Source of the DNA: a virus
Taxonomy: Duplodnaviria > Heunggongvirae > Uroviricota > Caudoviricetes
Reading direction: 5' to 3' (one strand)
Virus record (IMG/VR): IMGVR_UViG_3300046477_000062
Span: 1 to 54,547 of that record
Length of the DNA stretch: 54,547 nt
Made by a program: the position numbers and the translations under genes. Under the pieces are notes generated by a model, which did no database searches, was not told where the DNA came from, and saw only the letters and a program-made list of their open reading frames with translations. Below are positions 38,295-43,269 of the stretch, in pieces; the first letter of the stretch is position 1; each line of letters opens with the position of its first letter.

Positions 38295-38890
38295 TGTACA
38301 GAGTAGTGACAGGGCGAGACTGACCTTCTAAAACACCAGTCTGTTGTCAGTCGTGGTTTGAACCGAACGTGGACTGCCTCTATACAGATAGGTTCATGTG
38401 TTCAGCATTGAAGTACTAAGATACGTGCGCGTGCAACTTCCCTTCGTCAATGCAGCGTAGTGGAACACATTCTGAAGAATAGGTGTTTAGACGTTCATCT
38501 TGATAAAACGTCCAATCAGGTGTGATGCCTGTTCAGTTTATCGGGGAATCTATCCGTGTGGGAACGGATACCCGCGTGGAGCGGGAGAAGGTAATAAGTA
38601 GTTCTGAGTAGATTGTGGATAGTTACCGCGCGACGAAATGGAACTGAATAACTTCAAGTTGGGTTCGATTCCGCTGTCCCCGACCAAGGTTAGCCCTTTG
38701 AGGCACACAGAGAGAAGTGGGAGGACGCTCCCTGAAGTCGTCGGACGTGCATACTCGCGGTTACGTCCATCCCTAACGGGACAGAGTATGTGGACGGCGC
38801 ACCAACACATACAGTATGCAGCACGCGGGAAACATGTCGATGCGTGTCTGTGGATCGTAGTACATGGTCATCACATAACGAATACATTAC
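38295..38890 (+). ncRNA. Candidate ~600-nt ornate structured RNA region
   Basis: No credible ORF; dense stems and apparent pseudoknots; two CCA-terminated segments. Confidence 0.45.
38542..38686 (+). ncRNA. ~145-nt tRNA-like RNA (acceptor stem, T-loop, CCA)
   Basis: CGGGGA/TCCCCG + A + CCA; GGTTCGATTCC T-loop; internal hairpins TATCCGT/ACGGATA and CCCGC/GCGGG. Confidence 0.6.
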
Positions 38891-38892
38891 GA

Positions 38893-39195
38893 ATGGAAAA
38901 TCAGCACAGAAAAATCGTTGGCTATCGCGAACTGTCGGCGGAAGAAATTGCGCTAATGAACGAAGTCAAAGAAGAAGGTCAACGTATCGCCGCGCTGATC
39001 GAGAAGGTTCAAGTACATTTCAATAAGCAAGTCGAAGACGCTTATGGTGATGACTTCGATGAAGTTGCAAATCAACATGAACTTGATCGGCTTATTGCTG
39101 CGAATCCGCAACTCTGGATCGACCGTGCTACAGAAGATGCACAGATCGCAATCATGGCACTGGTCCGTGCAGTTGCACAACCGACGACATTCTGA
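38893..39195 (+). CDS. acb2: Anti-CBASS cyclic-nucleotide sponge (Acb2/Vs.4 family)
   Basis: MENQHRKIVGYRELSAEEIALMNEVKE and C-terminal MALVRAVAQPTTF match the Acb2 signature. Confidence 0.9.
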   Translation: MENQHRKIVGYRELSAEEIALMNEVKEEGQRIAALIEKVQVHFNKQVEDAYGDDFDEVANQHELDRLIAANPQLWIDRATEDAQIAIMALVRAVAQPTTF

Positions 39196-39431: not shown

Positions 39432-39894
39432 ATGCAGTTGACAGAATCAGACATCAAACGATTCTGGCGGCAAGTTGATATTCGAAGTGAAGATGAATGT
39501 TGGCCGTGGATTGGTTATGTCCATACGAACGGCTATGGAAGGTTCTCGATTGGTACTCGCGAAACGCAAACGCAGAACGTTGCATCGCGAGTATCACATA
39601 CGATAGCGAATGGTCAGATTCCACACGGACTCTGTGTTTGTCATCGATGTGACAACCCGATATGCGTAAAATCCGAAGCATCTGTTCCTTGGGACCAATG
39701 CAGATAACATGGCGGACAAGAAAGCCAAGGGTCGCGCACCAAGCGTAATCGGAAACGCCAAGATCAACTTCGAAATTGCAGAACAGATTCGTGCGGATAA
39801 GCGTCCGTACAAAGTCTTGATCGATGCTTATGGATTGAGTAAATCGACCATATCCTATATCAAGAATAACAAAATTTGGGCGTGTAGACCGTAA
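39432..39894 (+). pseudogene. HNH homing endonuclease split by a 1-nt frameshift
   Basis: RFW..V...ECWPW, GYGRF, VCHRCDNPICV; removing one A at 39668-39671 gives NPKHLFLGTNADNMADK plus a C-terminal HTH. Confidence 0.85.
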
Positions 39895-41347: not shown

Positions 41348-41502
41348 AACTACTGTATCGTCTGAACGTGTTTGTGGCCGGGATGTTGGACTTTCGCAAC
41401 CCGGTTGACCCCTACTACGCCGACAAGCGCGACTACCGCGTCTACAACGGCGGTCGCAACCTGTCGAACCGTCTGACGTTTCACTTCTTCGAATGGAGAT
41501 GA
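41344..41502 (+). CDS. Small hypothetical protein (52 aa)
   Basis: Coupled: MKLLYRLNVFVAGMLDFR... Confidence 0.55.
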   Translation: MKLLYRLNVFVAGMLDFRNPVDPYYADKRDYRVYNGGRNLSNRLTFHFFEWR

Positions 41503-41504
41503 CC

Positions 41505-41690
41505 ATGCCCGAACTTACCGATACCCAAAGACTGGACTTCATCTTCGACCATCGACCCATGTTCGATGAAGATAATCGCGGCCCATTCATGGTGTTCCGG
41601 TTCGAAGGCCATCACTGCGTCTCGCGCGGCAAGACCTACCGCCAGTGCATCGACAATGTGACGACCGGGGACTACAAGTACGCGGACTAG
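41505..41690 (+). CDS. Hypothetical protein (TDTQRLDF motif)
   Basis: RBS GGAG. Confidence 0.6.
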   Translation: MPELTDTQRLDFIFDHRPMFDEDNRGPFMVFRFEGHHCVSRGKTYRQCIDNVTTGDYKYAD

Positions 41691-41995
41691 ACGATCCCGT
41701 ACCGCTTCTTCATCGCGACTAGTTCCTTTCTGGCCCCCTCTACCATGACGACCGACATATCGATGTCGGTTTTCTTTTTGAAGGCACGAAGGTCTTCATA
41801 CAAATCCTTCGGCACCTTGAAACTCATGGTCTGGGTCGCGGCTTTCTCTGGAAACTTGAACGTCTCTACGGCCTCTACAACAGGCTGATCGTCCTTCGCC
41901 GCTACTTCGGTACTCGTCGGTACGTTCGAGCGCCGTGCGGCCTCGTCTGCCAACTGCTGGACCACATCTGGTATCGGTGCGAATCCCTTACCCAT
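41687..41995 (-). CDS. Putative centromere-binding adaptor (ParG-like ribbon-helix-helix)
   Basis: Coupled downstream of parA; flexible N-terminus; C-terminal QTMSFKVPKDLYEDLRAFKKKTDIDMSVVMVEGARKEL fits an RHH pattern. Confidence 0.65.
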   Translation of the reverse strand: MGKGFAPIPDVVQQLADEAARRSNVPTSTEVAAKDDQPVVEAVETFKFPEKAATQTMSFKVPKDLYEDLRAFKKKTDIDMSVVMVEGARKELVAMKKRYGIV

Positions 41996-42638
41996 TGAAC
42001 ACCCCCTTGTAGATCATATCGATTTCGTCTTGTGCCTGTTCCGAATCGCGGTTTCGGCGCAATTCCGCGACACCCTTCCCCTCTGATGCTGCAACCCCGA
42101 AAGCATTGCGCTTCACGACCTTGATCGGTTCACAGCCGAACGTGTCTTTCATCTTGTCAAACTCTGCCTTCAAGTCAACTGTCAGAGCATTCCTATCGTC
42201 TGCTGAAAGCTTGTTCATCACCGTGACGATACGGAAGGTCCGACCGCTGGCCCGCATGGTGTTGATCATCTGGGCCATCGCGGTCAATGACCAGACATCG
42301 TACTGACCGGCCTCTGCTGGCAATACAAGCACATCACACGCACCAACCGCATAGATCAGTTCAGGTGCGTTCTTCCCGCCGACATCCACGATCACCGTAT
42401 CAACGGCTTCACGTTCGGCCATCAAGTCGGAATAGATGTTGCCCGTCATCTTCGACAGGAGGATATTGGGTTCCACGTTCTTCTGACGACGCAGCATTCC
42501 CCACATGTACGCGTACTCGTCCGTATCCGCATCGATTAGCTTCACGGTATGTCCACGTATTGTCCGCGAGACGGCGAGATTCGTGGCTATCGTGGTTTTC
42601 CCCACTCCACCTTTCCTTGTTGCGACAGCTATCAGCAT
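41988..42638 (-). CDS. parA: Type Ib partition ATPase (ParA/ParF-like)
   Basis: Deviant Walker A KGGVGKTT, IDAD, VIVDVGG, VLVLP, VMNK; no N-terminal HTH; RBS GGAG before ATG 42638. Confidence 0.92.
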   Translation of the reverse strand: MLIAVATRKGGVGKTTIATNLAVSRTIRGHTVKLIDADTDEYAYMWGMLRRQKNVEPNILLSKMTGNIYSDLMAEREAVDTVIVDVGGKNAPELIYAVGACDVLVLPAEAGQYDVWSLTAMAQMINTMRASGRTFRIVTVMNKLSADDRNALTVDLKAEFDKMKDTFGCEPIKVVKRNAFGVAASEGKGVAELRRNRDSEQAQDEIDMIYKGVFNG

Positions 42639-42650
42639 GGGTATCTCCAT

Positions 42651-42679
42651 CTGTATAGGCGCATATACAGCCGTATATG
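42651..42679. repeat. Overlapping inverted repeats upstream of parA (candidate operator/centromere)
   Basis: CTGTATA-N6-TATACAG and CATATAC-N4-GTATATG. Confidence 0.55.
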
Positions 42680-42743
42680 TGGCCCCGTTTAAGACTACTG
42701 GTGCAGGGTAGCAACAAAATTACCGGATGGCAAGAGAAAGTAC

Positions 42744-42771
42744 TTGACGTGTATTCCCAAGTCTGTATAAT
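42744..42771 (+). promoter_or_regulatory. Early promoter cassette
   Basis: TTGACG tgtattCCCAAgtctg TATAAT. Confidence 0.8.
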
Positions 42772-42805
42772 CCTTCATATCGAAACATATCTGGGAGCGA
42801 AACAA

Positions 42806-43049: not shown

Positions 43050-43220
43050 ATGAAGAACTATCCCGTCATCTTCGAGAAGGACCACTGGATTTACCGGGAG
43101 TACGGCATCTGGCCGCAAGGCTTCGAGTTCGTCGTGTTCTCCCCTGACGGTAAGGTGATCAAGAAGTATCCGACGATGCACCAAGCCAAGGAAGCCATCG
43201 ACAAACTTGTTGACAAGTAA
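43050..43220 (+). CDS. Small hypothetical early protein
   Basis: RBS GAGGA. Confidence 0.6.
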   Translation: MKNYPVIFEKDHWIYREYGIWPQGFEFVVFSPDGKVIKKYPTMHQAKEAIDKLVDK

Positions 43221-43237
43221 TCCCAAACCTGTATAAT
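43210..43237 (+). promoter_or_regulatory. Early promoter cassette
   Basis: TTGACA agtaatCCCAAacctg TATAAT. Confidence 0.8.
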
Positions 43238-43269
43238 CCTTTTCATCGACAACGCACTTGGGAGCAAAC

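What the first reader, a model, noticed from the sequence alone, without database searches (positions are those of the whole stretch)
41687..42679. Plasmid-type Ib partition cassette (ParA plus RHH adaptor) inside a T4-like lytic genome
Seen in sequence: a short Walker-A ParA lacking an HTH, coupled to a 102-aa RHH-like gene, on the minus strand within an otherwise plus-strand early region. Established: this is the ParF/ParG architecture of low-copy plasmids and phage-plasmids; T4-like myoviruses are regarded as strictly lytic. Inference: the phage may persist episomally (carrier state or pseudolysogeny), position its DNA in the cell, or interfere with host or plasmid segregation. It could also be a recent passenger.
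Basis: partly seen in the sequence, partly recalled or inferred. Interest (0 to 1): 0.75.

Follow-up and report, generated by a model that had tools for sequence, protein, structure and literature searches.

The report
Plasmid partition cassette in T4-like phage
A small lineage of uncultured 168-kb T4-like phages carries a complete plasmid-type DNA-segregation kit (motor ATPase, small DNA-binding adaptor, binding site) taken from phage-plasmids and kept under strong selection, which suggests these "strictly lytic" phages sometimes need their DNA inherited by dividing host cells.

Summary
On the minus strand, 41988-42638 encodes a 216-aa ParA that starts at its deviant Walker A box and has no HTH. 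Its profile matches TP228 ParF best among solved structures (E 3e-32). The 102-aa gene at 41687-41995 overlaps it by 8 nt. That protein has a conserved N-terminal helix, a variable linker and a C-terminal ribbon-helix-helix domain, as in ParG. Just upstream of parA lies a conserved site of three ATATAC-type units.

The genome is an uncultured 168-kb T4-like phage. The cassette is neither a chimera nor a recent passenger:
- It sits at the same junctions in four independently assembled relatives.
- Its GC3 matches the phage's core genes.
- Its dS tracks that of core genes.
- Its dN/dS (parA 0.06-0.10) is at or below that of the DNA polymerase.

The genes and the DNA site came together, once, from a pool of 60%-GC phage and phage-plasmid elements; one is from Burkholderia vietnamiensis. 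One relative (L303) lacks the cassette, so it is accessory. I found no integrase, CI-type repressor, TrfA or Rep_3 replicon.

Most likely it is a working type Ib partition module that positions or segregates phage DNA in host cells that still divide. This is untested. The scan has noted par cassettes in other lytic-looking phages before.

The parts
41988..42638 (-). parA: 216-aa type Ib (ParF-like) deviant Walker-A ATPase. An in-frame upstream ATG at 42650 would give 220 aa.
   Evidence: K9 and K14 (KGGVGKT), D36/D38, D85 and the R177 'RN' motif are invariant across 30 homologues.
41687..41995 (-). ParG-like partner, 102 aa. It has an N-terminal K-x-F-A-P-[IV]-P-D motif with helix 10-21, a variable Pro/Ala linker at about 30-50, and a C-terminal RHH domain at about 52-102.
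   Evidence: It overlaps parA by 8 nt.
42653..42679 (.). Operator or centromere-like site. Read on the minus strand it is CATATAC (42679-42673), GTATATG (42668-42662) and CTATAC (42658-42653), with centres 11 and 9 bp apart, directly upstream of the ribosome-binding site.
   Evidence: The block is nearly invariant in three phages while the surrounding spacer varies. The same ATATAC unit is repeated upstream of parA in L004, L009 and L093. It is the only such palindrome in the 168-kb genome, apart from one 1-mismatch site at 153217.
42644..42648 (-). Shine-Dalgarno GGAGA for the ATG at 42638.
   Evidence: invariant in three phages.
42705..42733 (-). Candidate host-type promoter of the cassette: TTGCCA, 17 nt, TACCCT. 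This is an inference only and falls below the scan tool's threshold.
   Evidence: TTGCC(A/G)-N17-TAnnCT is kept in all four phages. It was not reported.
42744..42771 (+). Plus-strand early promoter cassette (TTGACG-16-TATAAT) that bounds the insertion. It is context, not part of the module.
   Evidence: (repeat D2). In L303, which lacks the cassette, the same promoter unit follows the orf41493 homologue directly.

Best explanation
This is a functional type Ib (ParF/ParG-like) DNA partition module living in a T4-like phage genome.

Shown here:
- An intact ParA ATPase, a partner protein (an N-terminal tail plus an RHH DNA-binding domain), and a conserved three-unit ATATAC site in front of parA.
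- All three parts are homologous to those of a pool of phage and phage-plasmid elements of about 60% GC.
- They were acquired once by the ancestor of this phage lineage.
- They have been inherited vertically under strong purifying selection.

Inferred mechanism:
- RHH dimers bind the ATATAC units. This forms a small partition complex and also represses the cassette's weak host-type promoter.
- ParA-ATP dimers coat bulk DNA.
- The partner's N-terminal tail stimulates ParA's ATPase, so phage DNA carrying the site is moved and spaced along the nucleoid.

The likely benefit is that, in slow or stalled infections (a carrier state or pseudolysogeny in starved soil hosts that still divide), phage genomes reach both daughter cells instead of being diluted out.
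For: Identity:
- ParA matches Pfam and PHROG ParA families. The family profile hits TP228 ParF over its full length (E 2.8e-32), ahead of Soj at 4e-23.
- The catalytic residues and the Soj-R189-like Arg are invariant.
- The partner's top structural matches are RHH proteins, including the partition proteins omega and pCXC100 ParB (Z 4.6-5.8 over 44-50 residues).

Selection:
- parA has dN/dS 0.06-0.10 and the partner 0.16-0.22, at dS 0.2-1.3.
- ParA is more conserved than the DNA polymerase: 93% against 81-86%, and 84% against 76%.

Age of the insertion:
- The junctions are the same in four assemblies.
- GC3 is 0.65-0.67, like core genes, against 0.70-0.89 in the donor-type elements.
- parA dS is 1.26 between the window and L004, against 0.74-1.8 for core genes.

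Origin:
- The four T4-like ParAs form one clade (100/99) nested among ParAs from phage or phage-plasmid contigs.
- The partners are 41-50% identical to those of the donor-type elements.
- The same ATATAC repeats lie upstream of parA in L009 and L093.

Background: pseudolysogeny has been reported for a T4-superfamily soil phage (DLP6, PMC5349666).
Against: - No plasmid replicon (TrfA, Rep_3), integrase, ParB_N, S24 repressor or HTH_3 regulator was found in the 168-kb genome. Nothing else points to a maintained episome.
- The cis site has only three units, and no larger array exists elsewhere.
- A close relative (L303) lacks the cassette, so it is dispensable.
- No expression, binding, ATPase or stabilisation data exist.
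- The promoter assignment is weak.
Confidence: 0.5

Rival explanations
1. Interference weapon. The phage expresses a copy of the partition and operator-binding proteins of the phage-plasmids living in its host. These would bind the residents' ATATAC sites or titrate their ParA, causing par-mediated incompatibility or repression. That would destabilise or silence competing elements, or the defences they carry, during infection.
For: The cassette derives from phage or phage-plasmid elements, and the DNA unit recognised appears unchanged (ATATAC in the window, L004, L009 and L093). The phage has no replicon or lysogeny genes of its own.
Against: The phage keeps its own cis site next to parA, strictly conserved, which is not needed for interference in trans. 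ParA is conserved as strongly as the DNA-binding partner. Partition incompatibility acts over generations, not within one lytic cycle. There is no PADLOC or other defence-related hit.
Confidence: 0.15
2. Repurposed positioning or host-takeover device within a purely lytic cycle. ParA and its adaptor would organise replicating or packaging phage DNA in the cell. Alternatively they would disturb host nucleoid segregation or division (Soj/MinD-like), with no episomal persistence.
For: ParA-family ATPases position many kinds of cargo. Among the PDB matches are MipZ, McdA, MinD and FleN. The cassette sits in the early region next to host-type promoters. There are no maintenance genes.
Against: The architecture, the partner family and the cis site are those of DNA partition systems, and they are shared with the phage-plasmid contigs, where partition is the expected role. 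Loss in L303 shows it is not needed for the lytic cycle.
Confidence: 0.2
3. Neutral or selfish passenger with no benefit to the phage: a recent horizontal insertion, or a mis-assembly.
For: It is the only minus-strand unit in a plus-strand block and lies at a boundary of repeated promoter cassettes known as recombination hot spots. It is absent from L303.
Against: It has the same junctions in four independent assemblies from different samples. Its GC3 matches the phage's core genes. Its dS equals that of core genes and its dN/dS is 0.06-0.2. Its stop codon overlaps that of the convergent neighbour.
Confidence: 0.05

Closest known systems
TP228 ParF-ParG-parH/OF (type Ib plasmid partition; PDB 4dzz, 5u1g, 1p94)
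   Same: A small ParA of about 206-216 aa with no HTH, and the best PDB match of the family profile (E 2.8e-32, full length). The partner is a small protein with a flexible N-terminal tail and a C-terminal RHH. The gene order is parA then partner, with overlapping genes. Short repeats lie upstream of parA and probably also act as the operator.
   Different: ParA scores below the NCBIfam ParA_partition cut-off (111 against 180 bits). The partner shares no detectable sequence with ParG; ParG itself ranks only 48th by structure, Z 3.7. The site has three 6-7-bp ATATAC units rather than arrays of ACTC tetramer boxes. The Arg finger of ParG (from memory, R19) has no clear counterpart conserved across this family; the conserved basic residue lies at position 3-4. 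The host replicon is a T4-like phage, not a plasmid.
Par modules of phage-plasmids (metagenomic contigs L006/L007 with TrfA; B. vietnamiensis contig L009/L010; cultured examples KS14, phiSG1, SSU5, D6, VP882)
   Same: ParA is 65-71% identical to L006, L009 and L093, and 25-32% identical to the cultured phage-plasmids. The partner family is the same, at 41-50% identity. The upstream ATATAC repeats are the same.
   Different: Those elements are 30-105 kb. They carry plasmid-type replication genes (TrfA, VapE or DUF927 primases) and lambda-like packaging genes next to par. Here there is no such replicon and no lysogeny gene, and the backbone is T4-like.
Pseudolysogeny and carrier state of T4-superfamily phages (Stenotrophomonas phage DLP6, PMC5349666; Campylobacter carrier-state phages, PMC3971406)
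   Same: A T4-type phage genome persisting unintegrated through a few host generations. This is the lifestyle in which a partition module would pay.
   Different: The passages I read by term search in those papers describe no partition genes. Persistence there is unstable and its mechanism is unknown. The present phage is uncultured, so no phenotype is known.

Membership tests
Type Ib (ParF-like) partition ATPase | Small ParA (about 200-230 aa) starting at the deviant Walker A box KGGxxGK[ST], with no N-terminal HTH domain | tested here: met
   216 aa with KGGVGKT at residues 9-15. Walker A', Walker B and the RN motif are invariant.
Type Ib (ParF-like) partition ATPase | Sequence membership of the ParF / ParA_partition family | tested here: inconclusive
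   The profile hits ParF 4dzz first (E 2.8e-32, full length). NCBIfam NF041546 scores 111 bits, below its 180-bit equivalog cut-off, so this is a related but separate subfamily.
Type Ib partition system | Adjacent small centromere-binding protein with an RHH fold and a flexible N-terminal tail | tested here: met
   In the AF2 model, residues 52-102 form an extended segment plus two helices at pLDDT 86-97, and residues 26-35 are disordered. The top roughly 29 VIA rows are RHH proteins, Z up to 5.8. Foldseek's top hits are also RHH, though with weak E-values.
Type Ib partition system | Cis-acting repeats (centromere/operator) next to the operon | tested here: met
   Three ATATAC-type units at 42653-42679, conserved in relatives and shared with the donor-type elements. 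Binding was not tested.
Type Ib partition system | Partner binds ParA and stimulates its ATPase; the module stabilises a replicon | not testable with these tools
Phage-plasmid | Plasmid-type replication initiator or origin in addition to phage genes | tested here: not met
   No TrfA or Rep_3 match in the 168-kb genome. The TrfA search had no positive control ring, and other replicon types were not searched.
Phage-plasmid | Lysogeny control (repressor) or other temperate markers | tested here: not met
   No integrase, S24 peptidase or HTH_3 match.
T4-like phage (T4 superfamily) | T4 core structural and replication genes | tested here: met
   gp18, gp20, gp23, gp43, gp46, UvsW, Dda and RnlA. Pfam Gp23, T4_CASP, Peptidase_S77 and Portal_T4 in relatives.

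The most novel reading that the evidence does not exclude
A lineage of T4-like phages, with no repressor, integrase or plasmid replicon, uses a captured plasmid partition module so that its genome is actively inherited by both daughters of infected but still dividing cells. This would be a genetically encoded carrier or pseudolysogenic state in a 'strictly virulent' phage family. The natural variant lacking the module (L303) would serve as a built-in control.
Probability: 0.4. Interest if true: 0.8.

Novelty: new member of a known kind. Interest (0 to 1): 0.6.

Why it matters
T4-type phages are the textbook case of obligately lytic viruses. Even so, unstable persistence (pseudolysogeny, carrier state) has been reported repeatedly without a known genetic basis. 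Here a T4-like lineage has kept a plasmid segregation module through deep divergence, under selection at least as strong as on its DNA polymerase. That implies a recurrent stage in which phage DNA must be placed or inherited inside living, dividing cells.

The cassette gives a concrete genetic handle: two genes and a 27-bp site. There is also a natural variant lacking the cassette, so the idea can be tested. The case also shows gene flow from phage-plasmids into a virulent-type backbone, at the repeated early-promoter cassettes.

Tried and rejected
- Complex prediction (ParA dimer with ATP plus the partner's residues 1-45) was not available, so the ParA-partner contact is untested.
- Sequence searches gave nothing for the partner: Pfam, PHROGs and NCBIfam, and PDB sequences. 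Only the fold comparison was informative.
- PADLOC gave no match for the two genes or their neighbours.
- A plus-strand terminator-like hairpin inside the partner gene (41750-41771) is kept only in the window and L003, not in L002 or L004. I do not count it as a feature.
- A T4-type late promoter was considered for the cassette. TATAAATA occurs only at 15758, 33763 and 35323, and gp23 is preceded by CTAAATA. Neither motif lies upstream of parA.
- The genome contigs and metagenome-contig scans used patterns that were too generic. They say nothing about host or distribution.
- Asking whether the 170,778-bp relative (L220) holds the cassette failed, because the record is not held.
- A larger centromere array elsewhere in the genome was sought and not found.
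- Literature searches found no report of a ParA/ParG cassette in a T4-like phage. This is absence within the library searched only.
- An HNH-like motif at 39432-39894 gave no Pfam hit.

Full report
**What is there**

The minus strand carries two overlapping ORFs: 41988-42650 (220 aa) and 41687-41995 (102 aa).
- The first is a ParA-family ATPase. It matches Pfam CbiA, AAA_31, ParA and MipZ, and PHROG 164 'ParA-like partition protein' at E 8e-28.
- Its real start is probably the second ATG, at 42638, giving 216 aa. That ATG follows GGAGA, and relative L002 lacks the upstream ATG.
- The protein begins at its deviant Walker A box (KGGVGKT, residues 9-15), so it has no N-terminal HTH.
- Across 30 homologues K9, K14, D36, D38, D85 and R177 are invariant. 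R177 lies in an 'RN' motif that resembles the non-specific DNA-binding arginine of Soj; that comparison is from my own knowledge.
- A profile of the family hits TP228 ParF first among all PDB sequences (4dzz, E 2.8e-32, full length). Soj follows at 4e-23.
- NCBIfam ParA_partition aligns end to end but scores 111 bits, below its 180-bit cut-off. I read this as a separate subfamily of ParF-like ATPases.

**The partner**

The 102-aa protein matches no Pfam, PHROG or NCBIfam family and no PDB sequence. An exhaustive profile search of 1.84 billion representatives found only 31 related clusters, so the family is rare and unnamed.

Its alignment shows three parts:
- a conserved N-terminal K-x-F-A-P-[IV]-P-D motif;
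- a variable Pro/Ala-rich linker;
- a conserved C-terminal segment of about 50 residues.

The AlphaFold model (34-sequence alignment) gives a helix at 10-21, a disordered stretch at 26-35, an extended segment at about 55-62, and helices at 63-76 and 80-99. The C-terminal half has pLDDT 86-97.

In a search of 48,161 chains that does not depend on Foldseek, the top roughly 29 rows are almost all ribbon-helix-helix proteins. They include ParD2, CopA, omega of pSM19035, PutA, NikR, TraM and pCXC100 ParB, at Z 4.6-5.8 over 44-50 residues and rmsd 1.4-2.4. Foldseek agrees, though with weak E-values. These Z values are modest in absolute terms but cover the whole small domain. A flexible tail plus an RHH domain is the ParG/omega design.

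**The DNA site**

Directly upstream of the ribosome-binding site lies a 27-bp block, 42653-42679. Read on the minus strand it is CATATAC, 4 nt, GTATATG, 3 nt, CTATAC.
- The block is nearly invariant in three phages, while the spacer around it varies.
- L004 has GTATATAC twice plus ATATAC at the same place.
- The same unit is repeated upstream of parA in the nearest non-T4 relatives: three copies in L009 and four in L093. L006 and L094 carry variant units.

So the genes and their cis site travelled together. No larger array exists elsewhere in the 168-kb genome.

A conserved TTGCC(A/G)-N17-TAnnCT lies upstream, at 42705-42733 on the minus strand. It is a possible weak host-type promoter but falls below the scan tool's threshold. 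No T4-type late motif is present there.

**The genome**

The window is the first 54.5 kb of a 168,385-bp IMG/VR record rated 94% complete. It encodes T4 core proteins. Its major capsid protein is at most 63% identical to that of any cultured phage; the closest are Methylophilales phage Melnitz, pelagimyophages and cyanomyophages. The DNA polymerase falls from at least 81% identity among a few relatives straight to 45% or less, so the lineage is isolated.

No match was found in the genome for integrase, ParB_N, TrfA, Rep_3, S24 peptidase or HTH_3. The TrfA search had no positive control.

**Not an artefact and not recent**

- The cassette lies at identical junctions in three IMG/VR genomes from different samples and in Logan assemblies of two runs from another source.
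- parA has dN/dS 0.06-0.10, and the partner 0.16-0.22.
- ParA is more conserved than the DNA polymerase, Dda or RnlA. Against the L002 contig the identities are 93% for ParA, 81-86% for the polymerase, 73% for Dda and 72% for RnlA. Against L004 they are 84%, 76%, 59% and 59%.
- parA GC3 (0.65-0.67) equals that of phage core genes (0.59-0.68). Three of the four donor-type elements checked have 0.70-0.89; L094 is lower, at 0.52.
- parA dS between the window and L004 (1.26) matches that of core genes (0.74-1.8).
- The partner's stop codon overlaps the stop of the convergent neighbour in a CTAG.

**Origin**

ParA homologues at 60-71% identity occur in several contigs:
- 80-86-kb contigs that carry TrfA next to par, plus a lambda-type terminase and an S49 protease;
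- a 42-kb Burkholderia vietnamiensis contig with a VapE primase, Nu1/GpA terminase and a portal gene;
- a phage contig with a DUF927 primase;
- a 77-kb contig with a phage-type RNA polymerase.

Each has a small homologous partner gene. In a maximum-likelihood tree the four T4-like ParAs form one clade (100/99) nested inside this pool. Cultured plasmids reach only 36% identity and cultured phages 32%. The cultured-phage hits listed are not T4-like, and the closest of them are phage-plasmids such as KS14, phiSG1, SSU5, D6 and VP882. A Burkholderiales host is therefore a reasonable guess, not a result.

**An informative exception**

L303 is a 176,940-bp ENA contig and a close relative. Over five concatenated proteins it is 75.5% identical to the window and 80.1% identical to L004. 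It lacks the cassette: the orf41493 homologue is followed directly by an early promoter cassette and then the orf43772 homologue.

The cassette occurs in both sub-clades, {window, L002, L003} and {L004, L303}. Loss in L303 is therefore the simplest reading. The break lies at one of the repeated early-promoter units, which earlier notes of this scan compared with the PeSL recombination modules of T4-type phages. So the module is accessory: it is not needed for lytic growth, yet it is strongly conserved wherever it is kept.

**Interpretation**

The parts list, their conservation and their ancestry argue for a working type Ib partition module. The likely mechanism follows ParF/ParG and omega/delta and is inferred, not shown:
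- RHH dimers on the ATATAC units form the partition complex and repress the operon.
- ParA-ATP binds bulk DNA.
- The partner's tail triggers ATP hydrolysis, which moves and spaces the phage DNA.

Why a T4-like phage needs this is open. I favour inheritance of phage DNA in infected cells that still divide. Pseudolysogeny is documented for the T4-superfamily soil phage DLP6 (PMC5349666), and carrier states are documented for Campylobacter phages (PMC3971406). The rivals are interference with resident phage-plasmids that share the same site, and a purely lytic positioning or host-takeover role. The lack of any replicon or repressor, and the small size of the site, keep my confidence near one half.

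**Novelty**

As a molecular system this is a new member of a known kind. The unusual part is the setting. I found no published report of such a cassette in a T4-like phage. Earlier notes of this scan describe par cassettes in other lytic-looking phages, so the theme is not unique to this genome.

Noticed in passing
window 38638-39195 (+): The 185-aa protein has an Acb2/Tad1 hairpin domain (Pfam PF24729, E 1e-9, above the cut-off). It may be a sponge for the cyclic-nucleotide signals of CBASS or Thoeris defence. Homologues are present in L004 and L303.
   Followed up: partly
window 42734-42783 and 43200-43249 (+); also L303 14985-15015: Near-identical early promoter cassettes (TTGAC(G/A)-16-TATAAT plus leader) are repeated in front of small ORFs. 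The presence/absence boundary of the par cassette coincides with one of them, which fits gain and loss of gene blocks by recombination between these units.
   Followed up: partly
window 41687-41690: The partner gene and the convergent 65-aa gene (41493-41690) share a palindromic CTAG, so their stop codons overlap. No terminator separates them, so early plus-strand transcription may run antisense into the cassette.
   Followed up: no
L094 1838-4737 (Logan SRR27107310, 77-kb contig): The same parA-partner cassette lies beside an HTH_36 protein and a phage-type single-subunit RNA polymerase. The cassette family is therefore spread over several unrelated phage backbones, some of which may also be virulent types.
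   Followed up: no
L303 (ENA ERZ25039557 contig_47744, 176,940 bp): This is a natural relative lacking the par cassette and several neighbouring small early genes. It would make a useful comparison genome.
   Followed up: partly
window 39432-39894 (+): Two adjacent small ORFs (91 and 61 aa) carry an HNH-like C-H-R-C-D-N-P-x-C motif and a basic tail. They look like a split homing-endonuclease remnant, but Pfam gave no hit.
   Followed up: partly
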